Position numbers and translations under genes: made by a program
The notes under the pieces: model-generated
What the model was told of the DNA's origin: nothing
What the model saw: only the letters and a program-made list of their open reading frames with translations
Database searches by the model: none
Shown: in pieces, positions 43,774-64,000 of the stretch
Position numbering within the stretch: position 1 is the first letter of the stretch
Layout of the letters: each line of letters opens with the position of its first letter
IMG/VR virus record: IMGVR_UViG_3300027963_000066
Coordinates: 1-64,000 of that record
Source of the DNA: a virus
Length of the DNA stretch: 64,000 nt
Direction: 5' to 3' (one strand)

Positions 43774-43929
43774 ACAGGCTAGTTGTCTACTTTGAGTTTA
43801 TATCGGTGTCAATATCGAAACACACCTATCTAGTTTGTCTTCAGCTATAACCTTCAAAGCCCATACAGGCTCCAGTTATAACCAACTCCCTAGCATTCCT
43901 TTAATATTAAAGGTTGCTGAACCTAGCCT
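43774..43929 (-). ncRNA. CAGCAA-stem element 1 (Y-RNA-like candidate)
   Basis: 5' AGGCUAG-G-UUCAGCAA ... CUAGCCU-GU 3', with internal hairpins. Confidence 0.7.
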
Positions 43930-43940
43930 TATAACACTAT

Positions 43941-45332
43941 TTATAGAACGCTGTAGCGATCTACATCAACAGTGGCTAGCATGATACCGTATGGAGTCAT
44001 GTCAGTACCACTTAGGATACCCTTCATAACTGCTGGACTAAACCCGCTAACCAACGCGGTACCGCGCTTGTCGAACTTAACAGGGACATTGTCCCGGCTG
44101 TTCAGGTTCCAGAATACAATGTTTGGAACTTCGTATCCTGCATCCTTGTACTTACGCTTGATCATTTGGTGAGCAGAGTCATCAAAACTTACGCATTGAT
44201 CAAACTGCATATCCGAAAGGATCAGCAAAGTCTTTGGCATGTCACTTGCGTTCACACCGCCCTTGACTGCGATGCGTAGGATTTCGTCAAACGCCGCATG
44301 TAGGTTAGTGTTCATGCCCCAGTCGCTAGAGTTCATTTGTGCCATCTTTTCAGATAGCGAACCCTTAACGACCTGTGCCTTTGGCTTAGCACTGAAAGTC
44401 AAGAATGTATCCTTGAATACACCTGTGTTCTTATCAGCACAGTACAGACCCAACGACAGGGCAATATCGATGCACATTAGGTTAGCGTTTCCGCCAACTG
44501 GGCATGACATCGAACCGCTAACGTCAACCAAAGGCATAACGCTGGCATCGCCAATGTAGTTTGGCAACGATGCCCATTGAGCATCTGCTACCACACTGTC
44601 GCCACCATGACGCAAGGTCTTGATGACATCGTATGGGTAAACCGCACTAGCGTTTACCTTGTCAGTACCTGCAGTCAAACGAGCCTTGTAGGCAGTGTAA
44701 GACGCAGAAGCATTCTTGGCAAATGCCTTGTTGTAACGAGCACTGGCTAGACTTGGCAACTTACCGAATTCGATAGAATCCCAGTCCTTTGCACACATCT
44801 TGCTTTCGACAACATTGGTCAACGCAACCAAACTCTTACGGTAGAACTTTGGAGTCATACCATAGAAGTTACGGATTTCAACCGCGATTGGGCCTTGACG
44901 AGGCATCCATTTGGCACACAGACCGTTGCGTTCACGCAGTGCATCACCGATTAGGGTATAGGCCATGTGTTTGAACTTTTCAGTCTTGAATACCAGCAAG
45001 TCGTCCCAACGGCCGAACTCGCTTACGAAAGGAAGAACTGCTTCCAGAGTTTCTGGATGCAACTTTTCCAGATGTACAAGTACATCACGGAACAGCTGAC
45101 GTTCACCTGCGCCACCACGGACATCACGTGACCAGAACGCAATCTTCATTGCAAGGTCACTGTCTTCCTGGAAAGCCTTTTCGAAGTCTGCGGTCACAGA
45201 CTTACCACGGCTTGCACCAATCTTGTAGAACAAATCTACAAGGGCATTGCCCGAATGGGCCTTTGCCTTCATACCGTTTTCGGTACGAGCTACCTCTGGG
45301 GTAGACTTAACTGCTTCAGCGAAAGTGATCAT
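43941..45332 (-). CDS. TROVE/Ro60-like RNA-binding protein with vWA domain (DUF2828-type)
   Basis: RDVRGGAGER, GRWDDLL, AKWMPR; MIDAS VDVSGSM, NTNL, LSDMQFD, IVFWNL. Confidence 0.8.
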   Translation of the reverse strand: MITFAEAVKSTPEVARTENGMKAKAHSGNALVDLFYKIGASRGKSVTADFEKAFQEDSDLAMKIAFWSRDVRGGAGERQLFRDVLVHLEKLHPETLEAVLPFVSEFGRWDDLLVFKTEKFKHMAYTLIGDALRERNGLCAKWMPRQGPIAVEIRNFYGMTPKFYRKSLVALTNVVESKMCAKDWDSIEFGKLPSLASARYNKAFAKNASASYTAYKARLTAGTDKVNASAVYPYDVIKTLRHGGDSVVADAQWASLPNYIGDASVMPLVDVSGSMSCPVGGNANLMCIDIALSLGLYCADKNTGVFKDTFLTFSAKPKAQVVKGSLSEKMAQMNSSDWGMNTNLHAAFDEILRIAVKGGVNASDMPKTLLILSDMQFDQCVSFDDSAHQMIKRKYKDAGYEVPNIVFWNLNSRDNVPVKFDKRGTALVSGFSPAVMKGILSGTDMTPYGIMLATVDVDRYSVL

Positions 45333-45355
45333 TTCGTTCTCCTTTCTTTAAAATG

Positions 45356-45408
45356 ACAGGATGCTTTTTTTACTATAAGAAAAGTATAAAAATTGCTGTA
45401 AGCATCCT
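45356..45408 (-). ncRNA. CAGCAA-stem element 2, in the 5' UTR of the TROVE-like gene
   Basis: 5' AGGAUGCU-UACAGCAA ... AGCAUCCU-GU 3'. Confidence 0.75.
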
Positions 45409-45437
45409 AAAAACTTTTTGTTTCTTTCTAAGCATTA

Positions 45438-45483: not shown

Positions 45484-46089
45484 TTACATTGTAGGACCGT
45501 TCCCGGACTTAAAACCTACACTACCACCCTCTGCTTCAATGCGAGCAATAACATCTTCAAACAAGATAGGAGCAAAGTCTGGAAGTTGTTCTACGCAAAC
45601 GCAGTGGTATCTAACATCAATCTCATCGCTGTACAAGACTTCTCCAGTACGGGCATCGACACCTCTCGCCTTCATAACTCTGTTGGCGTGTAAGTGTCCG
45701 TGTATATTACAACCAAACCTGCCAAGGCTTGCTTCGTGAACAGGAATATGACTTAAAATAAGTCCATTCATGACATGATACGCTCGTAATTCACGGAAGT
45801 ACTGCCTGTACTCGTCATCACGGAAAATGTCGTGGTTACCACGGATCAAAACCTTGTCACCGTTTAATCGGGCCAATGTCTTTAATGCCTTTCGATTAAT
45901 AACCACATCGCCCAAATGATATATTTTATCTGTAGGCTTAACACGGTCGTTCCAAGCCTTGACCATTGCTTCGTCCATCTCATCTGCGTCATCCCATGGC
46001 CTTAACTTTGTAACACCATCGTTACGTGTGAAGCGGCATACACCTGTGTGACCAAAGTGTGTGTCGCTGACTAAAAATACACTAGGCAT
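45484..46089 (-). CDS. Calcineurin-like metallophosphoesterase
   Basis: SDTHFGH, HLGD, GNHD, SHIP, HGHLH. Confidence 0.9.
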   Translation of the reverse strand: MPSVFLVSDTHFGHTGVCRFTRNDGVTKLRPWDDADEMDEAMVKAWNDRVKPTDKIYHLGDVVINRKALKTLARLNGDKVLIRGNHDIFRDDEYRQYFRELRAYHVMNGLILSHIPVHEASLGRFGCNIHGHLHANRVMKARGVDARTGEVLYSDEIDVRYHCVCVEQLPDFAPILFEDVIARIEAEGGSVGFKSGNGPTM

Positions 46090-46099
46090 ATTCGCCCCC

Positions 46100-47125: not shown

Positions 47126-47145
47126 AATGATGCTATATCCTATTT

Positions 47146-47610
47146 TTATACTGCATACCAAATTTCCTTAAACCCTTCTTCTTCTGAAGGCATTTCAAAA
47201 CTTGCCAGCATTCCTTCTATTACAGCATCCGGAATGTCTTTCCCAGGACGGCCGTCCAATCGACGCTTTAATTCAAGCCTTGACGGTGTTTCAAATACCA
47301 CAGCAATATGATCGTAGCCGGGCAACATGTTAAATTTACGCAGACGACTTGTTACGGTAGTACTAGTTTGATCCCAAATAATGTCTCGACCCGCTTCTCG
47401 AGCTTTAACAACATCGCCTGCCATTAGATTAACACATTCTGGCATGACCTCAGTAAAAACTTCACTGTAGGTTTTGCCCATATCTTTGGCAAATTTTTCA
47501 ACATAGACATCGGTGCTGATATAGGCACAGTCGCCTGCCCAATCTTGATTAGCTACCCAGGTACTTTTACCAGAACCAGGCACTCCGACCAATTGATAAC
47601 ATTTAGGCAT
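47146..47610 (-). CDS. P-loop kinase (AAA_33/polynucleotide kinase-like)
   Basis: GVPGSGKST, ISTD, WDQT, R...R lid, EEGF. Confidence 0.8.
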   Translation of the reverse strand: MPKCYQLVGVPGSGKSTWVANQDWAGDCAYISTDVYVEKFAKDMGKTYSEVFTEVMPECVNLMAGDVVKAREAGRDIIWDQTSTTVTSRLRKFNMLPGYDHIAVVFETPSRLELKRRLDGRPGKDIPDAVIEGMLASFEMPSEEEGFKEIWYAV

Positions 47611-53833: not shown

Positions 53834-54646
53834 TTATTTAAGACGCCGTTTGCAATGATCAATTAATAGTGATATCCAATCATTGGAAACTCCTATTTCT
53901 TTTTCTAACACAGCAAGATTTTTATTATTGTAAGAGATAATTTTGTCCTGATCAATCGATATGTTAAGATGCTGTTCTATGATATATTGATTAAGTCTAT
54001 TGCCGCAAATCAGTTGCCCTATATCAAAATAAAACCAGCCATCGTACTTGGTAGTAGACCATGTCTTATACCATTTGTATCTTGTTCTAATATAGTGTTC
54101 AAGATCTGCCTGCCCGTTAATCAATATTCCTAATTTGTAGGCAAGGAATTTCCAATTTTCATAAAGATCAGCATCGAGCAAGTCTGTCAGCTGGTGCGAA
54201 TATTGATGCCCTGAGTATATTAGATCTTCTATTTCTTTTCGTCTTGCGGGCCAGGCCTGTGAGTCGCTGATGTTTGATTTGATCCAACTTAGACAATAGG
54301 CACGATCGACATGTTCAGTATCCGATGAATACAATCGTATACCTTGACAGGGCAAGTTGGTCATTGAAATGTTGTTAAACCAATGTGTAGGAACACAAAA
54401 TGATTGATCACCATACGTTGATTCTAACTTGGCAACTTGTTCAGTGTTAATTGGCCATTCTTTGTTGCTGGGAAAAGTTTTTACATCTAAATTGATGGCC
54501 GCTAAATAATTTGGAAACAGTACTCTATTAGATTCTGTAGTCGCGAGATCAGGCACGTGGTAAAAATCTTTGCCGCTTGCGTGTACAAGACTAACAAAAA
54601 ATTCACCAAACATTCCTGGTTGATAACTTACGATAATGGGCTTCAT
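53834..54646 (-). CDS. Hypothetical protein
   Basis: 270-aa ORF. Confidence 0.6.
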   Translation of the reverse strand: MKPIIVSYQPGMFGEFFVSLVHASGKDFYHVPDLATTESNRVLFPNYLAAINLDVKTFPSNKEWPINTEQVAKLESTYGDQSFCVPTHWFNNISMTNLPCQGIRLYSSDTEHVDRAYCLSWIKSNISDSQAWPARRKEIEDLIYSGHQYSHQLTDLLDADLYENWKFLAYKLGILINGQADLEHYIRTRYKWYKTWSTTKYDGWFYFDIGQLICGNRLNQYIIEQHLNISIDQDKIISYNNKNLAVLEKEIGVSNDWISLLIDHCKRRLK

Positions 54647-55246
54647 ATGATCAATTTAAAAAATTTACAATTTGATATTACTACTTATGGTCAAAATCTA
54701 GCCTTGACATTTTCTGGAGGCTCTGATAGCTCACTGTTATTTTATTTGGCCGCACGACAAATACTAGATGAAAAATTAGATATCAATCTAAATTTATTTG
54801 TCACAGAACGTTTTAATCAACCGGTACCCTACGCCTTTGCGGTACATAAACGAATATGTGATCTGTTGGGATGCCACCAGTTTACTTTAACAGAAATGAA
54901 GCGTTCTGAATTACCGCAGGATGCAGTTATAGGGCCACTGGTACAATATCTAACTGATGTAAAAACTTTTGACAGTATCCTTTCTGGCAAAAACAAATAT
55001 CCTGATCACATACGCCCATTCCATTTTGCCTGGTTTGAAGAAACTGAAATCCTTAGATATCCTTTTAAAGAGTATACTAAGGATACGTTAATCGATTGTT
55101 TTTATCAGTGTGGGATAGAAGAAGTGTTATCAATGACACACTCCTGTGGTTGGCAGAGTGCAGGTTATTGTGGGAAATGTTTTAACTGTCAAGAACGTGA
55201 GTGGGCCTATAGTCAATTGCCCCATAAATTAAACATGGGGGCATAA
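54647..55246 (+). CDS. QueC-like PP-loop ATPase
   Basis: FSGGSDSS; THSC...CGKCFNCQER zinc motif. Confidence 0.75.
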   Translation: MINLKNLQFDITTYGQNLALTFSGGSDSSLLFYLAARQILDEKLDINLNLFVTERFNQPVPYAFAVHKRICDLLGCHQFTLTEMKRSELPQDAVIGPLVQYLTDVKTFDSILSGKNKYPDHIRPFHFAWFEETEILRYPFKEYTKDTLIDCFYQCGIEEVLSMTHSCGWQSAGYCGKCFNCQEREWAYSQLPHKLNMGA

Positions 55247-55798: not shown

Positions 55799-56548
55799 AT
55801 GAACATCAATGATCCAAAATTCCATCCAGTGTATGCGGATAGAAATACCACCCTCGAATGGTGGGGGTCAGATAACAAAAATCGGTTTAACGAAAATTTA
55901 AAAACTAAAAAATCTGATCTCGAAAAAAACGGGTGGCTAGAAAAAGAAATTACCTATTCTATAAACAGTGAAGGATTTAGATGTCCCCAGTTTGACAATA
56001 ATGATTGTGTCATGTTCTTAGGAAAAAGCGTTTCAATAGGAATTGGTTTAGAATACGAAAGAATTTATCCTACTTTGGTATCAAAGGTATTAGGATTAAG
56101 ATGTGCAAATCTTTCTATTGCAGGCACTTCAAACGACACGTCATTTAGAATGGCATTGCACTGGATAGGCAAATTAAAACCAAAAATTCTTGTGTTTGAT
56201 TCAGAGGCAAAAGATAGGGTAGAGCTGTTATCAATGGACAGTGTTATGAATTTTGTGCCATCTTTGCCCGACACACACCCTTTTTATCTAACACATCTAT
56301 CAGCAGAAGAAAATAGTGTGCTTAACTATAAGAAAAACCTGTTGGCCATTATAAAACTCTGTGATATCAACCAAACAAAATTTGTTGAAGTCTCGACCTA
56401 TAAGACCAATCTATCGAGCGACAGATGTACTTATGAATTAAAAAGACCGGATCCGGCCTCAAATCAATATGCTAGAGATTTAATTCATCCTGGTAACTTT
56501 ATTCATTTTTATAAAGCACTGGACATCCTAGATATGATAAACAAATAA
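55799..56548 (+). CDS. SGNH-like protein (paralog of 62932..63630)
   Basis: NSEGFR, FLGKS, NLSIAGTSND, ARDLIHPG. Confidence 0.6.
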   Translation: MNINDPKFHPVYADRNTTLEWWGSDNKNRFNENLKTKKSDLEKNGWLEKEITYSINSEGFRCPQFDNNDCVMFLGKSVSIGIGLEYERIYPTLVSKVLGLRCANLSIAGTSNDTSFRMALHWIGKLKPKILVFDSEAKDRVELLSMDSVMNFVPSLPDTHPFYLTHLSAEENSVLNYKKNLLAIIKLCDINQTKFVEVSTYKTNLSSDRCTYELKRPDPASNQYARDLIHPGNFIHFYKALDILDMINK

Positions 56549-56549
56549 C

Positions 56550-56625
56550 TGGCCTGCCCGGGAGGGATCGAACCTCCGACCCACAGCTTAGAAGGCTGTT
56601 GTTCTATCCACTGAACTACGGGCAG
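56550..56625 (-). tRNA. tRNA-Arg(UCU)
   Basis: Cloverleaf; loop CUUCUAA; CCA. Confidence 0.95.
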
Positions 56626-56631
56626 GTAATC

Positions 56632-57426
56632 TTATTCGATGCCTAGAGATTTTCTAATCTTGGTAGCACTGATATCGGTAATTGTAGAATCAAAAGATTC
56701 TTGCTCAATTTTATACCCAACATCTCTACCATACGTGATGTTAACAATATTAGGCACTACCTGTATAGTATACTGTCCCTGGTACTTAGGGTCAAGATCT
56801 CTTCGAATAAATTTAGTAACTTTTTCAAGTTCAAACGGATTACTGCCCTGCCAGCCTTGGCAGTCTCGTATCATAATACAGACCTGTCCAGTTTTAGCGA
56901 TGGCACGTTCAAATAAGGCTCGATGTCCTTCGTGCCAAGGTTGCCAACGACCCAGCATCTGTACTGTTTCTCGTTGCCAATCAAACACCGGGCGTCGACG
57001 ATTGTCTAAAATGTGTGCGGCAATAAACTCGCCCCACCATTCGGCACGTTGTTCGGTGATTCTAAAGTCATAGACTTCGGGTTCTTGGAACATGGCATTG
57101 GTGTCGGCGTAACGTCCTTCACGTATTGTGTCTACCCAAACGGTCCAATCTGCTTTAAAGTTATTGCGCATCTCGGCCAAGGGTGCTACAAAATCACAGA
57201 TCACATAGTCCATATCTGACATTGCATCGGCAAGTTCACGCATACGCTTACTCTGGCGAATCCGTCCAGCTTCACTGAAATCCCAATCGTCATACTTCTT
57301 ACGTACATCGTCGGCATTGAGCCAACCAATGCGCTTGCCTTCCCGTTGAAGGTAGTCAACAACCCATTGTGCCAGTGTTGTTTTACCTGAGCCTGGCAAT
57401 CCCATGATTAGTATTCGTTTAGTCAT
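56632..57426 (-). CDS. cysC: Adenylylsulfate kinase-like domain fused to an HxGH nucleotidyltransferase domain
   Basis: GLPGSGKTT, NADDVR, DWDFS..GRIRQ; GRWQPWHEGH and ISATKIR; start follows TAAATA-N5. Confidence 0.75.
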   Translation of the reverse strand: MTKRILIMGLPGSGKTTLAQWVVDYLQREGKRIGWLNADDVRKKYDDWDFSEAGRIRQSKRMRELADAMSDMDYVICDFVAPLAEMRNNFKADWTVWVDTIREGRYADTNAMFQEPEVYDFRITEQRAEWWGEFIAAHILDNRRRPVFDWQRETVQMLGRWQPWHEGHRALFERAIAKTGQVCIMIRDCQGWQGSNPFELEKVTKFIRRDLDPKYQGQYTIQVVPNIVNITYGRDVGYKIEQESFDSTITDISATKIRKSLGIE

Positions 57427-57442
57427 GCAGGTATTTATTTTA

Positions 57443-57519
57443 TGGTACCTCGTCTCAGATTCGAACTGAGAGCCAACAGATTTTGAATCTATCCGCACTA
57501 CCAATTAGCGTAACGAGGC
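57443..57519 (-). tRNA. tRNA with CAA (Leu) anticodon and short variable loop
   Basis: Cloverleaf; loop UUCAAAA; acceptor identical to tRNA-Val at 59585. Confidence 0.85.
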
Positions 57520-57522
57520 AAA

Positions 57523-57642
57523 ACAGGTTCTCATTTTTTGTGCTACCACTACACCAACACCGCTGACCAAGCAGTGCCCAGGATTCGAACCTGGCCCGTC
57601 TTTTTTACAGAAAGATTTTAATAAGATTGCTGAAAAGAACCT
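57523..57642 (-). ncRNA. CAGCAA-stem element 3 carrying a circularly permuted tRNA-Tyr(GUA)-like domain (YrlA-like)
   Basis: AGGUUCU..UUCAGCAA; UCUUU-CUGUAAA-AAAGA; CCAGG-UUCGAAU-CCUGG; GCACUGCU-UGGUC-AGCGGUGU; UG; GUGU-AGUGGUA-GCAC; AGAACCU-GU. Confidence 0.85.
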
Positions 57643-57657
57643 AGATGGTCAAATAAA

Positions 57658-57766
57658 ACAGGATGAGCTGTCATGGCCGGGAATCGAACCCTATTTCAGA
57701 CAATGTCCCCAAATGGACGGCCTCGCGAAATGTGGAGCGAGTAAAATGGTTTGCTGTAATCATCCT
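57658..57766 (-). ncRNA. CAGCAA-stem element 4 with T-loop module
   Basis: AGGAUGA-U-UACAGCAA ... GGG-UUCGAUU-CCC ... UCAUCCU-GU. Confidence 0.75.
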
Positions 57767-57782
57767 AAAACTAAATATTTGT

Positions 57783-58283
57783 ATGAACCGACTTCTTGAA
57801 TATTTGGATTTGCCTAAATTGCCTGCCGAACTGATCGAAGAAGCAAAGTTAAGCACACAGATCAATCCAAATGTTTTTATTTTTAAAGACTATTCAGCTT
57901 ACAAAATCTTTGATGCTACTGAATCAATCTCAGAATACACTCGTAGTATATTTGATTTTCCGCACCATACAAAAGTACAATTGATATCAGGGGACATCGC
58001 CATACACATTGATTATGGTCGATCAGTAGTTTATAATTATCTAATTGACTATCCTGGAGAAATAGCTTACTCTTGCCACTATCAAACTAGCGATCCTGCT
58101 AGTTTGATCAGTAAGGAAGCATTAACACCAGACTGCTGGTCTAGATTAGATGTCAGTGTTTATCACAATCTTTTAGGAGTCAAGGTTCCGAGATTGTTTA
58201 TCAGTGTTGCTCCTATAGAAAAAATATCCAAAGAAGATATTCGACGGAGCAGACAATGGTACAAAGAATTTGGAGCGGGATAG
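57783..58283 (+). CDS. Hypothetical protein (cupin/oxygenase-like HxD...H)
   Basis: TAAATA-N5-ATG; IHID...YHN..RL; 3' end overlaps tRNA-Gly. Confidence 0.55.
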   Translation: MNRLLEYLDLPKLPAELIEEAKLSTQINPNVFIFKDYSAYKIFDATESISEYTRSIFDFPHHTKVQLISGDIAIHIDYGRSVVYNYLIDYPGEIAYSCHYQTSDPASLISKEALTPDCWSRLDVSVYHNLLGVKVPRLFISVAPIEKISKEDIRRSRQWYKEFGAG

Positions 58284-58344
58284 GAGAATCGAACTCCTGA
58301 CTAAACCTTGGCAAGGTTTCGTTTGACCATTAAACTAATCCCGC
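58271..58344 (-). tRNA. tRNA-Gly(GCC)
   Basis: Cloverleaf; loop UUGCCAA; U73. Confidence 0.95.
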
Positions 58345-58357
58345 ATGTTTTTATTTA

Positions 58358-58447
58358 TGGTCCCCCACTGAGGAATCGAACCTCATCCTGGACCTTATCT
58401 AGATTAATCGGTTATAAGCCGACCTGCTCTCCATGAGCTAGCGGGGG
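58358..58447 (-). tRNA. tRNA with UAU (Ile) anticodon and long variable arm
   Basis: CCCCCGC/GUGGGGG-A-CCA; loop CUUAUAA; about 20-nt extra arm. Confidence 0.8.
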
Positions 58448-58460
58448 AATAAATATCGTT

Positions 58461-59327
58461 ATGATTAACATCTTAAAAGAATACACCAGTAAAGATTTGA
58501 GTAAAAAACTGATCCTGTCATTGCATGATCAAGCCGTTGTTGAAAGTGTGATAATGCCCGAGTCTGCACTGGGACCGTCGGCACTTTGCATCAGCGTTCA
58601 GGTAGGTTGTGCAGTAGGATGTACTTTTTGCAAAACTGGTCAAGATGGTCTGAAGCGTAATTTATCCGCTGACGAAATTATCGATCAATTGACCATCGCC
58701 GAAGAACAAAAATTTATAGATTTTATAGTGTTCATGGGCATGGGCGATTCTGCCCACAACATTGATGCTGTACTAACGGCAGTTGAAGAATTTGTTCATC
58801 GAGGAAAAAATAAAGATAAACTTCTTGTCAGTAGCATAGGCACAGATAAGTTTTTTGATAAATTAGAATCTGCAGTGGTTAAACCCAGACTAGCAGTCAG
58901 CCTGCATTCTGCAATAGATGCCACTAGAAAATCTATAATTCCCATGGCCAATTTAATGAGTGTACAAGAATTGATCGAACGCTCTCAACAGTATGCACAA
59001 TTAACCAATCGAAAAATCATGTATCAATTGACCATGCTGGCTGGAGTCAATGATACCGATGAAGAGATTTCAACAGTTATAGATCAATTAACACCATACA
59101 AACAGCATTCTATTATACAGATAATACCTTGGAATTTTATATCCGATGCAATGTTTACCTGTACACCCCAATCTAAAATTAAAGAAATAGTTGATCGATT
59201 TAGGAATCTAGATTTTGATGTTAGGCAAAGATATTCTTTTGGACAAGATATAGGCGCGGCCTGCGGCCAACTGTCGTCACAAAATCAATTGGCTCCCCAG
59301 GGTGGGATCGAACCACCGACACCCTGA
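58461..59327 (+). CDS. RlmN/Cfr-family radical SAM RNA methyltransferase
   Basis: CISVQVGCAVGCTFCKTG, VFMGMGD, SLH, GVND, DIGAACGQL. Confidence 0.85.
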   Translation: MINILKEYTSKDLSKKLILSLHDQAVVESVIMPESALGPSALCISVQVGCAVGCTFCKTGQDGLKRNLSADEIIDQLTIAEEQKFIDFIVFMGMGDSAHNIDAVLTAVEEFVHRGKNKDKLLVSSIGTDKFFDKLESAVVKPRLAVSLHSAIDATRKSIIPMANLMSVQELIERSQQYAQLTNRKIMYQLTMLAGVNDTDEEISTVIDQLTPYKQHSIIQIIPWNFISDAMFTCTPQSKIKEIVDRFRNLDFDVRQRYSFGQDIGAACGQLSSQNQLAPQGGIEPPTP

Positions 59328-59365
59328 TTAACAGTCAGGTGCTTCTACCGCTGAGCTACTAGGGA
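59290..59365 (-). tRNA. tRNA-Asn(GUU)
   Basis: Cloverleaf; loop CUGUUAA. Confidence 0.95.
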
Positions 59366-59371
59366 ATAAAA

Positions 59372-59447
59372 TGGTTGCGGGACTTGGATTCGAACCAAGG
59401 ATGGCAAAGGCTTATGAGACCTCGCTGGTGACCAGACCCTTCCCGCG
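59372..59447 (-). tRNA. tRNA-Met(CAU), probably initiator
   Basis: Loop CUCAUAA; C1:A72 mismatch. Confidence 0.85.
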
Positions 59448-59500
59448 ATATTCGTTTACACACTACTTATCCTATTGTACACCGTGTGTAAGGGTGACAT

Positions 59501-59577
59501 TGGTCGGAGTACAAGGATTCGAACCTTGGGCCCCTGCGTCCCAAACGCAGTGCTCTACCAGACTGAGCTACACTCCG
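59501..59577 (-). tRNA. tRNA-Pro(UGG)
   Basis: Cloverleaf; loop UUUGGGA. Confidence 0.95.
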
Positions 59578-59584
59578 AATAAAC

Positions 59585-59659
59585 TGGTACCTCGTGACAG
59601 GGTCGAACTGCCGACATTCGCCGTGTAAAGGCGCTACTCTACCACTGAGTTAACGAGGC
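59585..59659 (-). tRNA. tRNA-Val(UAC)
   Basis: Cloverleaf; loop UUUACAC. Confidence 0.95.
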
Positions 59660-59667
59660 AAAAACCG

Positions 59668-59901
59668 TTATCTAATTTTTTTCAAATAGTCTTTGAGAGA
59701 ATAATCACCATTCTCAAATTCTTTAAGAGCAGTTACGCATGGATATACCTGATCTCTGCTTTCACTATTCTTATGTTGCCTTGCGATTTCTCTGGCTCGA
59801 GTGGCCAAGGCCAGGACCATAGAAAATCTATCATTGCCGGAATTTTTAACACATTTTTCAATATCTATCTCTGTGCCACGACTAAGTGTTTTTACTTTCA
59901 T
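59668..59901 (-). CDS. rpoZ: RNA polymerase omega subunit-like protein
   Basis: GAGGA RBS; NDRFSMVLALATRAREI...VTALKEFENG resembles RpoZ NRFxLVLxAAxRARQ...ALxEI. Confidence 0.65.
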   Translation of the reverse strand: MKVKTLSRGTEIDIEKCVKNSGNDRFSMVLALATRAREIARQHKNSESRDQVYPCVTALKEFENGDYSLKDYLKKIR

Positions 59902-59921
59902 ATTGTCCTCTTTTAAAAAAC

Positions 59922-59995
59922 TGGAGCGGGGTAAGAGAATCGAACTCTCAGCATTAGCTTGGAAGGCTAAGGTATTACCACTATACGAACCCCGC
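59922..59995 (-). tRNA. tRNA-Gly(UCC)
   Basis: Cloverleaf; loop CUUCCAA. Confidence 0.95.
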
Positions 59996-59997
59996 AT

Positions 59998-60106
59998 ACT
60001 TTATTGAAACACATTGTTGCGGCCGCAGGATACCGAGTGATGTAGTGAGTCGGAATCAAACCTTCCCAATCTACACAGTGCTCTCCACAATGCGCTTCAA
60101 TAAAGT
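59998..60106 (-). ncRNA. Long-terminal-stem ncRNA candidate (family B)
   Basis: actttattgaaacacattgt ... acaatgcgcttcaataaagt inverted repeat. Confidence 0.55.
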
Positions 60107-60308
60107 GTCTAGCTACCTACACCACATAGGCCCTAGACTGAGCAGTTACTCTGTCCATAACATTTATTCTTTTGGAAAGGTGTTATACCTCACCTAATGC
60201 GTTCCCGCCACTCCTCTACAGAGTACGGATGGTCAATGCATTACACACCTGGCGCTCTCTATGGTGACTGCCCCACCCTCCTTCGCTAACGGGCAGGAGT
60301 GCCCGGGT
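60107..60308 (-). ncRNA. Structured non-coding RNA candidate
   Basis: GC-rich, no ORF, multiple nested helices. Confidence 0.5.
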
Positions 60309-60313
60309 TTTCA

Positions 60314-60377
60314 ACAGGTTAATACTAGTTTAACGTCCTAGCAGACAGCCATTTTTTTTAATCGCTGTAATTAACCT
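60314..60377 (-). ncRNA. CAGCAA-stem element 5
   Basis: AGGUUAAU-UACAGCGA ... CUAG-GACGUUAAA-CUAG ... AUUAACCU-GU. Confidence 0.72.
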
Positions 60378-60382
60378 AAAAC

Positions 60383-60456
60383 TGGTGCCCCTACACAGAA
60401 TCGAACTGCAAATTGCGGATTACAAAACCGCCGTTATACCATTTAACTATAAGGGC
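60383..60456 (-). tRNA. tRNA-Thr(UGU)
   Basis: Cloverleaf; loop UUUGUAA. Confidence 0.92.
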
Positions 60457-60462
60457 TCTAAC

Positions 60463-60556
60463 TGGCAGTGACGGAGGGATTCGAACCCTCGGACCCGGTT
60501 TATGCCGAATCGTCTTCTTAGCAGGAAGGTGGTTTAAACCGCTCACCCACGTCACT
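60463..60556 (-). tRNA. tRNA-Ser(GCU)
   Basis: Loop CUGCUAA; long variable arm; G73. Confidence 0.92.
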
Positions 60557-60562
60557 ATAATT

Positions 60563-60638
60563 TGGTGCCCCAGAGGAGACTCGAACTCCTAGGATTTGGT
60601 TTCTAAGACCAACACGTATACCATTCCGTCACCGGGGC
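60563..60638 (-). tRNA. tRNA-Leu(UAG), short variable loop
   Basis: Loop CUUAGAA; Leu-type D loop; A73. Confidence 0.88.
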
Positions 60639-60654
60639 ATTATACTCTACTTAT

Positions 60655-60743
60655 CATATAGAAACACACTTATCACTTTTCTCGACAGTGGTGTGAAGTC
60701 CTTACAACCTAAATTACATTTAGGCTAAATGTGTTTTTATATG
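60655..60743 (-). ncRNA. Long-terminal-stem ncRNA candidate (family B)
   Basis: catatagaaacacactta ... taaatgtgtttttatatg inverted repeat. Confidence 0.55.
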
Positions 60744-60816
60744 GTAGGGGCACAGAGAATCGAACTCTGATTAATAGGTTAAAAGCCTACTACTTTAGCC
60801 GTTAAGTTATACCCCC
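60742..60816 (-). tRNA. tRNA-Lys(UUU)
   Basis: Loop CUUUUAA. Confidence 0.93.
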
Positions 60817-60819
60817 ATA

Positions 60820-60894
60820 TGGTCCACGCTCTGAGAATCGAACTCAGTTAGTCCGGTTAAGAGCCGGGTACTTCGCCACTAAAGTTTAGCGTGG
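60820..60894 (-). tRNA. tRNA-Lys(CUU)
   Basis: Loop CUCUUAA. Confidence 0.9.
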
Positions 60895-60957
60895 ATGGAT
60901 TCGTAATTGATTTTCTTTTACGTGCCATCCAGGACCATACGGGGGTCTAGGATGACA

Positions 60958-60978
60958 CTAACGTTTAGCACGTTTCAT
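60958..60978 (-). CDS. Six-codon minigene MKRAKR
   Basis: AAGGAG RBS 6 nt before ATG AAA CGT GCT AAA CGT TAG, followed by a hairpin. Confidence 0.5.
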   Translation of the reverse strand: MKRAKR

Positions 60979-61007
60979 GTCGTTCTCCTTTTGAACATTA
61001 AAAAATT

Positions 61008-61082
61008 TGGCGGTCTCAAGGGGTAACGATCCCCTTCTTCAACAGTGACAGTGTTGTGTGCGTCCATGAACACTTTGAGACC
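61008..61082 (-). tRNA. tRNA-Asp(GUC) with atypical T loop
   Basis: Loop CUGUCAC; G73; T loop AUCGUUA. Confidence 0.85.
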
Positions 61083-61351
61083 ATTAATTATATTGTCGAG
61101 TTATGGACAGTAATCGCCCTACTGTCGTTTGTCAACCGTATCATATTCTATTATGTTTAGCATAATATTATTGAAGTTCTGATACCGTCCAGGACGCTTA
61201 TTGCTAAGACCGCTAAGTCTATGATTCGTCGTCTCCGCTTCGGTTAAGGTTATAGCAGAACTAAGTTCTACAATGAGCCGGCACTCACCTATATTGCATT
61301 GAATGACACTGGGCTGGTGAACACAGCCATTTTCCTTGACAACATAATTAA
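61083..61351 (-). ncRNA. About 270-nt ncRNA candidate closed by a long terminal stem
   Basis: attaattatattgtcgag ... cttgacaacataattaat pairing, exactly filling the Leu-Asp tRNA spacer. Confidence 0.55.
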
Positions 61352-61437
61352 TGGTACCCGAGACCGGACTCGAACCGGTACGCTTTTGAATGCGGCAGAT
61401 TTTAAGTCTGCTGTGTCTACCATTCCACCACTCGGGC
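61352..61437 (-). tRNA. tRNA-Leu(UAA)
   Basis: Loop CUUAAAA; long variable arm. Confidence 0.95.
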
Positions 61438-61442
61438 AAAGT

Positions 61443-61518
61443 TGGCGTCCCGTACGAGATTCGAACTCGTGTACTCGCCGTGAAAGGGCGATATCCTAGG
61501 CCTCTAGATGAACGGGAC
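61443..61518 (-). tRNA. tRNA-Glu(UUC)
   Basis: Loop CUUUCAC. Confidence 0.95.
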
Positions 61519-61579
61519 GTAAAAATTGCAATTAATTTTTAAAGAGCTATGACAGCTATTTCTAACTGTCTAAGTATAT

Positions 61580-61608
61580 ATTGTACTGCCATTTTACCCT
61601 TGTGTCAA
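61580..61608 (-). promoter_or_regulatory. Sigma70 promoter for the tRNA array
   Basis: TTGACA-N17-TACAAT. Confidence 0.75.
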
Positions 61609-61632
61609 GTCTAAAATTGCCTAAATAGTCAA

Positions 61633-62229
61633 ATGCTCTACACTGAATTTGAATCTATTGCCTTGCCCTATCTACAGTCTAAAGACCGTGTAGCAGTTAT
61701 GGTCAGCGGCGGATTTGACAGTGCAGTCTTGTTGTACAGTCTGTGTCTAGTAAAGTCCTCACTCAAACTTGCTGTCAGCATCAGTACTTTTACAGTACCA
61801 TTACACAATGATTCTGAACGATATTCAAGAATGGTCACCGCATGGGTGGGTAACAGATTTTGTCTAGACCTAACTCCTACAATATGTGGCGATCCCGATC
61901 TTGCACATAATCAAGTGGTCAAAAGTGGGATTGCTCATGCTGTAAGCATTTGCCCGAATATAATCATCGCCGAGACTACTAATCCGTCACATTTGACAAA
62001 TCTTAGTTCAGCTCCTGCACGTACACGAGCTCTTAAAATATTCCAACCATTTATCAATTGGACTAAAAAAGAAACTGTGAAATTATCTATTGATTTGGAT
62101 CTAGACGACCTTGTGTCGCTTACACACAGTTGTACGGAAAAAACTGTGCGATGTAATCAGTGCTGGCAATGCCAAGAGCGGGCCTGGGGATACGCAGAAA
62201 ACGCATACCCTGATCCGGGCTGTTATTAA
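61633..62229 (+). CDS. QueC-like PP-loop ATPase (second paralog)
   Basis: VSGGFDS; THSC...CNQCWQCQER; TAAATA-N5-ATG. Confidence 0.75.
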   Translation: MLYTEFESIALPYLQSKDRVAVMVSGGFDSAVLLYSLCLVKSSLKLAVSISTFTVPLHNDSERYSRMVTAWVGNRFCLDLTPTICGDPDLAHNQVVKSGIAHAVSICPNIIIAETTNPSHLTNLSSAPARTRALKIFQPFINWTKKETVKLSIDLDLDDLVSLTHSCTEKTVRCNQCWQCQERAWGYAENAYPDPGCY

Positions 62230-62877
62230 TTATTTTGTAGGATAAATGTAATGCTTTTGCAGTTCTGGGCGTAACGGTTCATCCCATTTACCTGCACGAC
62301 AAATATCAACCATGCCTTTTGGCACTCCAAACTCTAGCATTTCTTCATAAGAGCTAAGTTCGTAACCTTTGGCACGAGGTTGCATCATGCAGGGCATGCC
62401 CATGTTGGTCCACTGTCTATCGGGATCGGTCATGTCTTCGTAGTGCGTATCTCTGGTAGGAGTACGTTTGAAGATGGTCCTTCCTCGATCCGGAGTTTCA
62501 AAAATAGTATTGTTTCGATGAAAAATTTCAGCGGTGTCTTCACACTCTAGTATAGCCTGCATTCTTTGCAAATGATCTAGATAGCGACCATCCGGTCCTA
62601 CGCCGTTGGTACATCGTTCTATACGTCCCGGAATTCGTTCAACAATTATGGGGTCTTCATAATTTTCTTCGTGTACACCTACAATGTCGCTGAAGTTATC
62701 ACTGATCCAACGCTTCTCAACGTACCAATCGTTTTCAGTAAGCACAGTGACTTCACCTCGATAGGTTTTTTTATAACCCAGACTTCCGCCCTCAAAGGCC
62801 TCGTATTCTAAATCGTCTCCGATTTTACAAGTTAATCGTTGATTCGGTGTGTCAAAAACCCAGTCTAGTAGCATCAT
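62230..62877 (-). CDS. Hypothetical protein
   Basis: GGAG RBS, TAAATA upstream. Confidence 0.6.
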   Translation of the reverse strand: MMLLDWVFDTPNQRLTCKIGDDLEYEAFEGGSLGYKKTYRGEVTVLTENDWYVEKRWISDNFSDIVGVHEENYEDPIIVERIPGRIERCTNGVGPDGRYLDHLQRMQAILECEDTAEIFHRNNTIFETPDRGRTIFKRTPTRDTHYEDMTDPDRQWTNMGMPCMMQPRAKGYELSSYEEMLEFGVPKGMVDICRAGKWDEPLRPELQKHYIYPTK

Positions 62878-62931
62878 AGTTGTTCAAACTCCATAAGTTA
62901 TATGTGTGTTTATTTATTAATAAATATTTGT

Positions 62932-63630
62932 ATGGATAGACTTAATTACAATTCAATATACAAAGGATTTTCAAAAAAATCTGTAGACTGGGTTTCCGGG
63001 GACACCCAAGAAAAATACAAAGAAAATTTATTATCACACAGATCCGAACTTGAAAAGCACGGGTGGATTGATAATAAATTCAATTACTCTTTTAATTCTG
63101 AAGGATTTAGATGTGACGAATTTTCATCAGATCCCACAGTTATGTTTTTAGGTTGTAGTTTTACTGTAGGCATCGGCATGCCTATAGAACAAACTTGGTC
63201 TTCACTGGTTGCCAAATCTCTTGATTTAAAATCAGCAAATCTTGGGCAGGGCGGCGGATCTAATGACACTGCTTTTAGATTAGGGGTTCATTGGATCCCA
63301 AAAATTAAACCTAAGCTAGTTGTATTGTTAGTAACACCGTACCATAGGTTTGAAATAGTGTCGTCTGGAATGATACACTTGATCACGCCTCAACACCATG
63401 CTGAACAATTTACTAATTTTATGGCCGAATGGGGATCTGATGATACTAATCCATATCATAATCGCCTTAAAAATGTATTAGCAATAAAACAGGTATGTGC
63501 AGAAAATCAAATCAAATTTGTCAAACATGACTGTAACCTTTTTCAAAGATTGGACCTAGCCAGAGACCTGGCTCACCCTGGTGTAATGTCTAATCAAAAG
63601 TTAGCAGAAGATATATTAAAATTAATATAG
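62932..63630 (+). CDS. SGNH-like protein (paralog of 55799..56548)
   Basis: NSEGFR, FLGCSFTVGIG, NLGQGGGSND, ARDLAHPG; TAAATA-N5-ATG. Confidence 0.65.
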   Translation: MDRLNYNSIYKGFSKKSVDWVSGDTQEKYKENLLSHRSELEKHGWIDNKFNYSFNSEGFRCDEFSSDPTVMFLGCSFTVGIGMPIEQTWSSLVAKSLDLKSANLGQGGGSNDTAFRLGVHWIPKIKPKLVVLLVTPYHRFEIVSSGMIHLITPQHHAEQFTNFMAEWGSDDTNPYHNRLKNVLAIKQVCAENQIKFVKHDCNLFQRLDLARDLAHPGVMSNQKLAEDILKLI

Positions 63631-63660
63631 TGGCAGGCGCATTAGGGATCGAACCTACTC
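63631..63660 (-). pseudogene. tRNA 3' fragment (T arm plus acceptor 3' strand and CCA only)
   Basis: UAGG-UUCGAUC-CCUA-AUGCGCCU-G-CCA, with no 5' half. Confidence 0.65.
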
Positions 63661-63671
63661 CAAATAAATAT

Positions 63672-63745
63672 TGGCAGAGGGTAATGGAATCGAACCATTA
63701 ATAGCGGAATCAAAATCCGCTGTTATACCATTTAACTAACCCCCA
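63672..63745 (-). tRNA. tRNA-Gln(UUG)
   Basis: Loop UUUUGAU; U1 start; G73. Confidence 0.9.
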
Positions 63746-63753
63746 ACAATAAA

Positions 63754-63810
63754 ACAGGTTGCTTATTTTTCAATTAAAAGTTGAATTGGTAAATTTGCTG
63801 AACGCAACCT
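63754..63810 (-). ncRNA. CAGCAA-stem element 6 carrying a Lys(UUU) anticodon stem-loop
   Basis: AGGUUGC-G-UUCAGCAA ... UUCAA-CUUUUAA-UUGAA ... GCAACCU-GU. Confidence 0.78.
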
Positions 63811-63815
63811 AAAAA

Positions 63816-63907
63816 TGGAGGAAGGATGGTAGAATCGAACTCCAACCGGCTCATCACCGATCCATCTGTTTTCAAGACAGTGCCGGGCCCAGCCCAGATA
63901 ACCTTCC
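63816..63907 (-). tRNA. Atypical tRNA-Ser(UGA)
   Basis: Loop CUUGAAA; long variable arm; 6-bp D stem with tiny loop; bulged T stem; U73. Confidence 0.75.
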
Positions 63908-63912
63908 ATGTT

Positions 63913-63988
63913 TGGTAGTGATGGTCAGACTCGAACTGACGATAATCTCCGTATGAAGGAGGCACATTAGCCGCTATGCTACATCACT
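63913..63988 (-). tRNA. tRNA(CAU), elongator Met or Ile2
   Basis: Cloverleaf; loop UUCAUAC. Confidence 0.85.
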
Positions 63989-64000
63989 ATAATTTGGTGC

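What the first reader, a model, noticed from the sequence alone, without database searches (positions are those of the whole stretch)
57523..57642. Complete circularly permuted tRNA-Tyr(GUA) inside a CAGCAA-stem element
Read 5'->3' on the minus strand after the handle: anticodon arm UCUUU-CUGUAAA-AAAGA (the canonical Tyr loop), short variable CGGG, T arm CCAGG-UUCGAAU-CCUGG, acceptor stem closed into a hairpin (GCACUGCU-UGGUC-AGCGGUGU), UG linker, D arm GUGU-AGUGGUA-GCAC, then the closing stem. All four tRNA arms are present, but the chain is opened at the D/anticodon junction and there is no CCA, so it cannot be charged as transcribed. YrlA RNAs show the T-acceptor-D permutation, but there the Ro-binding stem takes the place of the anticodon arm; here a full anticodon arm is retained. 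No ordinary tRNA-Tyr is present in this window. Inference: it is either a decoy for tRNA-Tyr-targeting defences (retron Ec78/PtuAB is reported to target tRNA-Tyr) or a precursor needing ligation, as with algal and archaeal permuted tRNAs.
Basis: partly seen in the sequence, partly recalled or inferred. Interest (0 to 1): 0.9.

Follow-up and report, generated by a model that had tools for sequence, protein, structure and literature searches.

The report
Inside-out tRNA on phage Y-RNA handle
This phage carries a small RNA gene that is a whole tRNA with its parts in rotated order and its charging end sealed, mounted on a conserved "handle" that travels with a Ro60-like protein gene, so it is most likely that protein's partner RNA (a new kind of Y RNA) and not a tyrosine tRNA.

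Summary
All four tRNA arms lie at 57525-57642 (minus strand) in the order anticodon, T, capped acceptor, D. They sit inside a 7-bp closing stem that is followed by UUUCAGCAA. It is one of more than 100 homologues in viral contigs. Covariation supports every helix, a 15-48 tertiary pair, and a new pseudoknot between the 5' leader and the acceptor cap.

The "Tyr" label does not hold. Among 28 close relatives the loop frame CU-NNN-AA is invariant, but the triplet takes eight values. The body has a short variable loop. The phage has an ordinary long-arm tRNA-Tyr 1.6 kb beyond the window.

The handle is tightly linked to a 463-aa gene (43941-45332) whose model matches Ro60 structures. In 69 of 75 related loci a handle lies within 600 nt upstream of that gene on the same strand.

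Best reading: a YrlA-like Y RNA of a divergent phage Ro60, with a different binding motif. Protein binding and function are not shown.

Homologues exist in E. coli phage Bas63, whose Ro60-like gp130 is reported in a preprint to counter a defence system. The scan found this family before on other DNA. I found it in neither Rfam nor the papers I could search.

The parts
57646..57650 (-). 5' leader segment GACCA that pairs with the acceptor-cap loop (pseudoknot strand 1)
   Evidence: Register-free Watson-Crick match between the 11-nt leader and the cap loop averages 5.19 bp in 42 homologues. Shuffled leaders average 2.60 bp (maximum 2.90 in 500 shuffles). Five complementary allele pairs occur.
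57636..57642 (-). Closing stem, 5' strand (AGGUUCU)
   Evidence: 98.6% of cells paired; 4 of 7 pairs show compensatory changes.
57627..57635 (-). Handle motif UUUCAGCAA, unpaired, immediately 3' of the closing stem
   Evidence: Entropy is 0 in 28 close relatives. CAGCAA is the one motif shared by all handle RNAs, including those of Felixounavirus, Listeria and Mycobacterium phages.
57616..57626 (-). A/U-rich linker between the handle and the anticodon-like arm
   Evidence: Variable in length and sequence.
57599..57615 (-). Anticodon-like arm: 5-bp stem and 7-nt loop CUGUAAA (triplet GUA at 57606-57608)
   Evidence: All 5 stem pairs covary. Loop positions 32-33 and 37-38 are invariant. Positions 34-36 have entropy 0.85, 1.89 and 0.75 bits.
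57595..57598 (-). Short variable loop CGGG; its last base covaries with D-loop position 15
   Evidence: Position 15-48 combinations: A-U 23, G-G 13, G-C 4, other 2.
57578..57594 (-). T arm with UUCGAAU loop
   Evidence: 100% paired; 3 of 5 pairs show double changes; the loop is invariant.
57557..57577 (-). Acceptor stem closed into a hairpin; cap loop UGGUC (57565-57569) is pseudoknot strand 2
   Evidence: 6 of 6 modelled pairs covary. No CCA is encoded.
57540..57556 (-). U8-G9 linker and D arm GUGU-AGUGGUA-GCAC
   Evidence: 100% paired. The GG of the D loop is conserved.
57525..57539 (-). A-rich linker and closing stem 3' strand (AGAACCU), followed by GUU and then tRNA-Leu(CAA) at 57443-57519
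43941..45332 (-). Ro60-like protein gene (463 aa; Pfam DUF2828 + DUF7788; PHROG 850 'RNA-binding protein'), the presumed protein partner
   Evidence: Family hits. The AlphaFold model (pLDDT 77) matches Ro60 structures over the full length: 9kop, 9l5y, 2nvo, 1yvr, E 4e-9 to 1e-4.
45354..45424 (-). Handle RNA immediately upstream of the Ro60-like gene (short hairpin cargo)
   Evidence: Model R1 scores 30.7 bits, E 4e-5. Fold. Sequence.
43775..43929 (-). Handle RNA immediately downstream of the Ro60-like gene, followed by a terminator-like hairpin
   Evidence: Sequence. The 5' handle part is matched at 43863-43945 by R1 (16.6 bits, E 0.11). Fold.
57658..57766 (-). Neighbouring handle RNA, 15 nt upstream, with a T-loop-like cargo
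   Evidence: Sequence. Fold shows the closing stem AGGAUGA/UCAUCCU.
60314..60377 (-). Handle RNA with the CAGCGA variant
   Evidence: R1 scores 23.4 bits. Fold z -3.4.
63754..63810 (-). Minimal handle RNA that displays one hairpin
   Evidence: R1 scores 30.7 bits. Fold.

Best explanation
The element is a non-coding RNA of a large phage family that I call handle RNAs. Each has a 7-bp closing stem plus an unpaired CAGCAA motif enclosing a variable cargo.

Here the cargo is a whole class-I tRNA body in permuted order. Its acceptor end is sealed by a loop that pairs with the RNA's own 5' leader.

The handle is most likely the docking site for the phage's Ro60-like ring protein, encoded 12 kb away and itself flanked by two other handle RNAs. 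The molecule would then be the functional analogue of bacterial YrlA Y RNAs: one module binds Ro60 and one module mimics tRNA.

The tRNA-shaped module would present an L-shaped body and an exposed anticodon-type loop to tRNA-binding factors. These could be host nucleases, modification or processing enzymes, or an exoribonuclease recruited as in Ro-Y RNA-PNPase complexes.

It is not a decoding tRNA-Tyr.

Shown here: the fold, the family, the genetic linkage, and the Ro60-like fold of the protein. Inferred: protein binding, expression and processing, and any counter-defence role.
For: 1. Structure. Five helices are supported on unfitted and fitted alignments. The 15-48 tertiary pair covaries. 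A leader-cap pseudoknot has five compensating alleles. All 42 members are called as tRNAs once rotated.

2. Family. The pattern scan gave 119 or more viral stretches. Model R1 gave 111 matches at E <= 1e-6, with many different cargos on the same handle.

3. Linkage.
- The window's 463-aa DUF2828/DUF7788 protein is flanked by handle RNAs.
- In 69 of 75 viral loci that encode relatives, a strict handle ends within 600 nt upstream on the same strand. There are 116 handles in the 500 nt before the gene and none there on the other strand.
- 5 of 5 and then 20 of 30 pattern-bearing contigs have the gene, including all 9 that are at least 90% complete.
- The gene occurs in only 710 of 50,697 phage records.

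4. The protein model matches Ro60 crystal and cryo-EM structures over its full length.

5. Precedent.
- YrlA has the same T-acceptor-D permutation and lies beside Ro60 genes (PMC4201824).
- Thermus phage Ro60 binds two upstream Y-like RNAs and host PNPase (PMC12135203).

6. Cultured relatives carry the same pairing.
- Bas63 has a homologous permuted tRNA-like handle RNA about 1 kb downstream of bas63_0130 (64.6 bits).
- Garuso has four handles.
- Listeria phage cka14 has three.
- Mycobacterium phage DuncansLeg has three after its annotated Ro-like gene.
Against: - Binding of the handle to the Ro60-like protein was not tested and cannot be tested with these tools.
- This copy lies 12 kb from the protein gene, not beside it.
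- The handle motif CAGCAA differs from the GNCGAA/CGAA motif of known Ro60-bound bacterial and phage Y RNAs.
- Pfam TROVE does not hit the protein.
- Rfam YrlA does not hit the element at E <= 10.
- No sigma-70-like promoter was found on the minus strand near the element.
- The only expression hint is that near-identical sequence sits in contigs of freshwater RNA libraries. That does not show transcription.
Confidence: 0.72

Rival explanations
1. It is an anticodon-specific decoy. The RNA, with or without the protein, soaks up a host tRNA-Tyr-targeting (or other anticodon-specific) defence nuclease, and the triplet is tuned to the nuclease that the phage meets.
For: - A perfect CU-NNN-AA anticodon-loop frame is kept while the triplet changes between near-identical relatives. 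One pair differs at a single base of the triplet and nowhere else in the element.
- Other handle RNAs in this window display a single hairpin.
- The Felixounavirus homologue of the protein is reported to counter a defence system (10.1101/2024.10.10.617714).
Against: - The triplet's variability (mean 1.16 bits) is no higher than that of the freely covarying acceptor stem (1.25 bits). Neutral drift of unread bases explains it equally well.
- The defence countered by gp130 (Ppl) is not known to cleave tRNA.
- The phage already has an ordinary tRNA-Tyr.
- No nuclease was tested.
Confidence: 0.12
2. It is a permuted tRNA gene that is processed into a working tRNA. One route is ligation of the D and anticodon ends. 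Another is RNase P cleavage of the cap plus CCA addition, which would give a two-piece tRNA held together by the handle.
For: - All arms, U33, purine 37, a 7-bp acceptor stem and the 15-48 pair are present.
- M. smegmatis YrlA, which also has a 7-bp acceptor stem, is cut by RNase P and receives CCA in vivo (PMC4201824).
Against: - One conserved body carries at least nine anticodon classes, including Tyr, Ser and Leu. In bacteria these need long variable arms; here the variable loop is 4 nt.
- There is no bulge-helix-bulge at the junction.
- The same handle carries non-tRNA cargo.
- The cap loop is conserved and pseudoknotted, not a disposable spacer.
Confidence: 0.05
3. The handle is a processing or stability cassette that host or phage RNases recognise in the tRNA-array transcript. 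It works independently of the Ro60-like protein, and the gene linkage only reflects a shared genomic neighbourhood (tRNA arrays).
For: - Handle RNAs sit among tRNA genes and often end in GUU just before the next tRNA.
- The Ro60-like gene often borders tRNA arrays.
Against: - Handles peak sharply in the 500 nt just upstream of the protein gene and just after it, on the same strand only.
- They also occur where no tRNA array adjoins the gene, as in Mycobacterium phage DuncansLeg.
Confidence: 0.08
4. It is a decaying or rearranged tRNA pseudogene, or a chance resemblance.
For: The single-sequence fold is only marginally better than shuffles.
Against: There are more than 100 homologues, with compensatory changes in every helix and invariant T loop, D loop and handle.
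Confidence: 0.01

Closest known systems
YrlA Y RNAs of bacterial and mycobacteriophage Ro60/Rsr (Rfam RF02553; Chen et al. 2014, PMC4201824)
   Same: - Two-module RNA: a terminal stem with a short conserved unpaired motif, plus a tRNA-like domain in the order T arm, loop-closed acceptor stem, D arm.
- The 15-48 pair covaries.
- Encoded with a Ro60-fold protein gene, often several RNAs per locus.
   Different: - The motif is CAGCAA, not GNCGAA.
- The protein is the DUF2828/DUF7788 family, which the Pfam TROVE model does not detect.
- A full 5-bp/7-nt anticodon-type arm is retained.
- The acceptor cap pairs with the 5' leader.
- Copies are scattered through the tRNA array.
- The Rfam model does not find it. 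It only weakly touches the tRNA-like part of the mycobacteriophage copy (27 bits against a 69-bit threshold).
Yrl1/Yrl2 of Thermus phage phiLo with phage Ro60 (PMC12135203; PDB 9KOP, 9L5Y)
   Same: - Phage-encoded Ro60-fold protein with small RNAs just upstream.
- These structures are the best structural matches of this window's protein.
   Different: - The phiLo RNAs are stem-bulge-stem RNAs with a CGAA motif. No tRNA-like body is mentioned in the passages read.
- Sequence identity of the proteins in the structural alignment is only 15-17%.
Deinococcus radiodurans Yrn1
   Same: Y RNA drawn with a possible 5-bp anticodon-type arm as well as a T arm.
   Different: Yrn1 has a 6-nt loop, a different orientation of the arms and no clear D arm. 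It keeps the metazoan-type Ro-binding helix.
Circularly permuted tRNA genes of red and green algae and some archaea
   Same: The 3' half of the tRNA is encoded before the 5' half, and the acceptor ends are joined by an intervening loop.
   Different: Those precursors form a bulge-helix-bulge that a splicing endonuclease cuts before ligation, and they yield ordinary decoding tRNAs. This is from my own knowledge of Soma et al. 2007 and was not read here. In this element the junction is a continuous 7-bp stem plus CAGCAA, and the anticodon is not conserved.
Two-piece tmRNA from permuted ssrA genes
   Same: Permuted gene order in which the acceptor 3' strand precedes the 5' strand. Excising the connecting loop gives a two-piece, non-covalent tRNA-like domain (own knowledge).
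   Different: There is no evidence here for loop excision or charging. ARAGORN finds no tmRNA.

Membership tests
YrlA / Y RNA (Rfam RF02553) | Scores at or above the Rfam gathering threshold | tested here: not met
   No YrlA hit on 56400-64000 even at E <= 10. As a partial control, the model touches a mycobacteriophage handle RNA at 27.3 bits against a 69-bit threshold.
YrlA / Y RNA (Rfam RF02553) | tRNA-like domain in T arm, closed acceptor stem, D arm order with tRNA tertiary signatures | tested here: met
   The T loop is UUCGAAU, the D loop has GG, and positions 15-48 covary.
YrlA / Y RNA (Rfam RF02553) | Conserved GNCGAAN(0-1)G Ro-binding motif near the 5' end | tested here: not met
   The invariant motif is UUUCAGCAA.
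YrlA / Y RNA (Rfam RF02553) | Encoded with a Ro60 orthologue, same strand | tested here: met
   A Ro60-fold protein is encoded at 43941-45332 on the same strand. Family-wide adjacency holds in 69 of 75 loci. This particular copy is 12 kb away. Pfam TROVE does not hit the protein.
YrlA / Y RNA (Rfam RF02553) | Physically bound by the Ro60 protein | not testable with these tools
   Needs RIP/CLIP or EMSA.
Functional tRNA-Tyr | Contiguous cloverleaf with free acceptor ends and a CCA or processable 3' end | tested here: not met
   Not called by ARAGORN or the Rfam tRNA model in native order. The acceptor is closed by a conserved, pseudoknotted loop and there is no CCA.
Functional tRNA-Tyr | Bacterial-type Tyr body (long variable arm) and a conserved GUA anticodon | tested here: not met
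   The variable loop is 4 nt, whereas the phage's own tRNA-Tyr has a long arm. The triplet differs among close homologues.
Permuted tRNA genes (algal/archaeal type) | 3' half upstream of 5' half | tested here: met
Permuted tRNA genes (algal/archaeal type) | Bulge-helix-bulge at the leader/trailer junction for a splicing endonuclease | tested here: not met
   The junction is a continuous 7-bp helix followed by a 9-nt conserved single strand on one side and an A-rich strand on the other.
CAGCAA-handle RNAs (provisional family of this scan) | Covarying 7-bp closing stem with CAGC(A/G)A 1-4 nt after its 5' strand | tested here: met
CAGCAA-handle RNAs (provisional family of this scan) | Genome also encodes a DUF2828/DUF7788 Ro60-like protein | tested here: met

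The most novel reading that the evidence does not exclude
The capped acceptor loop is opened by RNase P and given a CCA tail, as shown for M. smegmatis YrlA. That would produce a two-piece, handle-clamped, Ro60-bound molecule with every feature of a tRNA. Its three-base 'anticodon' would be under diversifying selection, making it a programmable bait or adaptor with which phages track host anticodon nucleases or tRNA-sensing immune systems.
Probability: 0.1. Interest if true: 0.9.

Novelty: new variant of a known kind. Interest (0 to 1): 0.68.

Why it matters
- What bacterial Y RNAs and their tRNA-like modules do is still unsettled.
- Here the Ro60/Y-RNA idea appears in a much expanded, modular phage form: one handle with many tRNA-derived cargos, up to a whole permuted tRNA.
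- The protein occurs in about 1.4% of sequenced phages, including E. coli, Salmonella, Listeria, Staphylococcus, Mycobacterium and cyanobacterial phages.
- The RNAs are unannotated, or are annotated as small antisense ORFs. In Bas63 the RNA lies under bas63_0137.
- The protein of Bas63 already has a reported phenotype, countering the Ppl defence (preprint). The role of the tRNA-shaped RNA can therefore be tested directly in E. coli K-12.
- This could link Ro60 biology to the phage-host conflict over tRNAs.

Tried and rejected
- Rfam at gathering and at E <= 10 gave no family for the element.
- A six-frame Pfam TROVE search of five handle-bearing genomes gave no hit. The protein was then found through DUF2828/DUF7788.
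- A sequence search of the protein against PDB gave only noise. The Ro60 match came from the fold search.
- A column-wise count of the pseudoknot on the MAFFT alignment gave only 54.7% paired, because the leader is out of register by 1-4 nt between sequences. The pseudoknot claim therefore rests on the register-free test and the five allele pairs.
- The promoter scan found no minus-strand site near the element.
- Reads: only Logan contigs of RNA libraries were available. They cover 57522-57662 (one contig with 0 mismatches) but run on into unlike flanks. They show neither transcription nor RNA ends.
- The 353-aa neighbour gene (46100-47161) was checked as a possible RNA ligase. There was no family hit, and the nearest named atlas clusters were glycosyltransferase-like at low score. 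An RNA-repair operon reading is not supported beyond a small kinase and a metallophosphoesterase.
- I could not map the three highly transcribed regions of Listeria phage CKA15 (PMC12282133) onto the three handles of cka14. A ROOL-like RNA lies in the same stretch, so I do not count that paper as expression evidence for handle RNAs.
- Complex prediction was not used because it does not take RNA.

Full report
WHAT IS THERE

Read on the minus strand, 57642-57525 holds the following parts in order:
- a 7-bp closing stem (AGGUUCU/AGAACCU);
- an unpaired UUUCAGCAA and an A/U linker;
- a 5-bp/7-nt anticodon-type arm with loop CUGUAAA;
- a 4-nt variable loop;
- a canonical T arm;
- a 7+1-bp acceptor stem closed by the loop UGGUC;
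- U8-G9;
- a canonical D arm;
- an A-rich linker.

tRNA-Leu(CAA) follows 5 nt later. ARAGORN and Rfam and 17 tRNAs in the window but not this element. The MFE fold shows all five helices. As a single sequence it is only marginally better than shuffles (z -1.85).

IT IS A CONSERVED RNA

- A blastn search found an unannotated homologue in Synechococcus phage BUCT-ZZ01. Every stem there is changed but still pairs, and the loop triplet is different.
- A pattern of the handle plus a T loop hit 119 or more viral contigs. Ninety-nine unique elements could be parsed into the same architecture.
- RNAalifold on an unfitted MAFFT alignment of 38 close homologues predicts the closing, anticodon, T, acceptor and D helices by itself. 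Sixteen of its 26 pairs show compensatory changes.
- A covariance model built on that alignment scores the window element at 136 bits. It finds 111 matches at E <= 1e-6 in the loci held.
- On the 42-sequence fitted alignment, 96.7% of cells pair, against 42-53% for slid partners. Twenty of 28 pairs have double changes, and no shuffle in 500 reaches the observed values.
- D-loop position 15 and the last variable base covary as A-U (23), G-G (13) and G-C (4), with two exceptions. This is the Levitt-pair position of tRNA.
- Rotated in a script to the canonical order, all 42 are called by ARAGORN as complete tRNAs of about 70 nt.

A NEW STRUCTURAL FEATURE

The leader just 5' of the closing stem (GACCA at 57650-57646) is complementary to the acceptor cap loop.

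- Without fixing a register, the best Watson-Crick match between leader and cap averages 5.19 bp in 42 homologues.
- Shuffled leaders average 2.60 bp, with a maximum of 2.90 in 500 shuffles.
- Five different complementary allele pairs occur: GACCA/UGGUC, AUACCA/UGGUAU, AUCCC/GGGAU, UACCU/AGGUA and AGUUUU/AAAACU.
- Minority alleles pair 5-6 bp with their own leader but only 2-4 bp with the majority leader.
- A column-wise count on the MAFFT alignment is spoiled by register shifts.

The acceptor end is thus sealed and tied to the leader. It is not left as a disposable spacer.

IT IS NOT A tRNA-Tyr

- In 28 relatives that share the identical anticodon stem, loop positions 32-33 (CU) and 37-38 (AA) never vary.
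- Positions 34, 35 and 36 have 0.85, 1.89 and 0.75 bits of entropy. The triplets seen are GUA 9, GAA 6, GGA 5, GCA 2, UAG 2, AUG 2, GCG 1 and ACG 1.
- Two elements differ at one triplet base and nowhere else.
- Over the wider family ARAGORN names at least nine anticodon classes on one body type.
- The body has a 4-nt variable loop. The phage's own tRNA-Tyr(GTA), 1.6 kb beyond the window end, has the long variable arm expected for a bacterial-type tRNA-Tyr.
- The triplet's variability equals that of the freely covarying acceptor stem (1.16 against 1.25 bits). It can therefore be read as unconstrained drift as easily as an arms race.

THE HANDLE AND ITS PROTEIN

An earlier first-stage note on this genome pointed to a DUF2828-type gene, and I tested that lead.

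- Window 43941-45332 (minus strand) encodes a 463-aa protein with Pfam DUF2828 and DUF7788 and PHROG 850 'RNA-binding protein'.
- Handle RNAs lie immediately upstream (45354-45424, after a TTGACA-17-TATAAT promoter-like site that I read by eye; no scan was run there) and immediately downstream (43775-43929, before a terminator-like hairpin).
- Its AlphaFold model (22-row alignment, pLDDT 77) matches Ro60 structures over about 500 columns. The matches are phage phiLo Ro60 (9kop, 9l5y), D. radiodurans Rsr (2nvo) and Xenopus and human Ro60, with E 4e-9 to 3e-4 and query-normalised TM 0.40-0.59. Pfam TROVE itself does not detect it.
- In 80 viral loci that encode relatives, 198 handle candidates lie on the gene's strand against 40 on the other. 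About 24 per strand are expected by shuffling.
- With a stricter definition, 69 of 75 loci have a handle ending within 600 nt upstream. There are 116 handles in the 500 nt before the start codon and 19 just after the gene, and none on the opposite strand in those bins.
- Conversely, 5 of 5 and 20 of 30 pattern-bearing contigs have the gene, including all 9 that are at least 90% complete. Only 710 of 50,697 phage records have it.

CULTURED RELATIVES AND LITERATURE

- The protein family includes the 'Ro-like RNA binding protein' of mycobacteriophages and proteins of Felixounavirus, Listeria P100-like, Staphylococcus, Vibrio, Campylobacter and other phages.
- Mycobacterium phage DuncansLeg has three CAGCAA handle RNAs after the gene. 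One has a T-acceptor-D body that the Rfam YrlA model touches only weakly.
- Listeria phage cka14 has three tandem handles within 340 nt upstream of the gene.
- E. coli phage garuso has four handles in the tRNA array after the gene, one of them a permuted tRNA-like RNA with an anticodon-type arm (64.6 bits).
- The same RNA is in BASEL phage Bas63 (JohannRWettstein), about 1 kb downstream of bas63_0130. It lies under an antisense 'hypothetical protein' annotation.
- A preprint reports that Bas63 gp130 resembles Ro60, lies upstream of the tRNA genes and counters the Ppl defence. It guesses that some of the 'tRNAs' may be Y RNAs.
- Chen et al. 2014 define YrlA by a GNCGAA motif plus a T-acceptor-D tRNA-like domain beside Ro60. 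[quoted passage not shown]
- The phiLo study shows a phage Ro60 binding two upstream CGAA-type RNAs and host PNPase.
- I found no paper describing the CAGCAA handle or a permuted complete tRNA on it. The searchable library is incomplete.

HOW IT MOST LIKELY WORKS

- Shown: a compact RNA whose termini are clamped by the handle stem. Its body has all tRNA helices and a tertiary-pair signature, and its acceptor cap is tied to the leader.
- Inferred from linkage and from YrlA/Ro60 precedent: the handle docks on the Ro60-like ring, and the tRNA-shaped module is held out to tRNA-recognising factors.
- Open: which factor is met. It could be a nuclease to be decoyed or recruited, a modification enzyme, PNPase, or a defence sensor. 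Whether the RNP acts in counter-defence, as the Bas63 phenotype hints, is also open.
- The precursor and two-piece tRNA readings are kept as low-probability rivals.

COMPARISON AND NOVELTY

It works like YrlA, but it fails two of that family's defining tests: the motif and the Rfam model. Its protein partner belongs to a divergent Ro60-fold family. I therefore file it as a new variant of a known kind.

Other agents of this scan have reported the same handle family on other genomes. It adds the following:
- the leader-cap pseudoknot;
- the frame-invariant, triplet-variable loop;
- the 15-48 covariation;
- the Bas63, garuso, cka14 and DuncansLeg copies.

Noticed in passing
window 63820-63907 (-): An 88-nt class-II tRNA-like gene scores 45 bits on Rfam tRNA-Sec (threshold 47) and is missed by ARAGORN. 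Its loop CUUGAAA reads as anticodon UGA, so it is probably a tRNA-Ser(UGA).
   Followed up: partly
L122:1500-1590 (-), contig about 65500-65590: Next to the canonical tRNA-Tyr lies a second CCA-ending RNA with a CUGUAAC loop (GUA) and an odd D region and long variable region. It is another Tyr-type oddity in the same contig.
   Followed up: no
window 59996-60313 and 61083-61351 (-): Two long (about 270-320 nt) G+C-richer non-coding stretches lie between tRNA genes. They have no Rfam hit and could be further structured RNAs.
   Followed up: no
window 54557-55246, 58461-59327, 61633-62229 (+): QueC-like and radical-SAM genes sit on the opposite strand inside the tRNA array. They suggest a 7-deazaguanine pathway interleaved with the tRNA genes.
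   Followed up: no
window 59668-59901 (-): A 77-aa ORF inside the tRNA array matches RNA polymerase Rpb6/omega (PF01192, E 1e-6).
   Followed up: no
window 45484-47610 (-): Just upstream of the Ro60-like operon lie three genes. They are a metallophosphoesterase, an unassigned 353-aa protein, and a 154-aa AAA_33 kinase with weak likeness to the Pnkp kinase domain. This could be RNA-end healing, but no ligase was found.
   Followed up: partly
L211:5430-5582 (Bas63, record 82748-82900): The annotated 153-nt 'hypothetical protein' bas63_0137 lies antisense over the permuted tRNA-like handle RNA. It is probably a mis-annotation.
   Followed up: partly
L209:1470-2021 (Listeria phage cka14): A ROOL-like RNA (86 bits, below the 99-bit threshold) lies between tRNA genes, about 650 nt upstream of the three handle RNAs and the Ro60-like gene.
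   Followed up: no
L016, L027, L045, L070, L086, L092, L093, L095 (viral contigs): In another subfamily the break point seems to lie inside the anticodon stem. Two bases after the D arm (CG of ACG) can pair with CG after the loop, so the handle branches from within the stem. The loops there read GUU or UUU/CUU.
   Followed up: partly
PMC12282133 (Listeria phage CKA15): The Ro60-like protein CKA15_055 was detected in purified virions at 57% sequence coverage. The protein may be delivered with the DNA.
   Followed up: no
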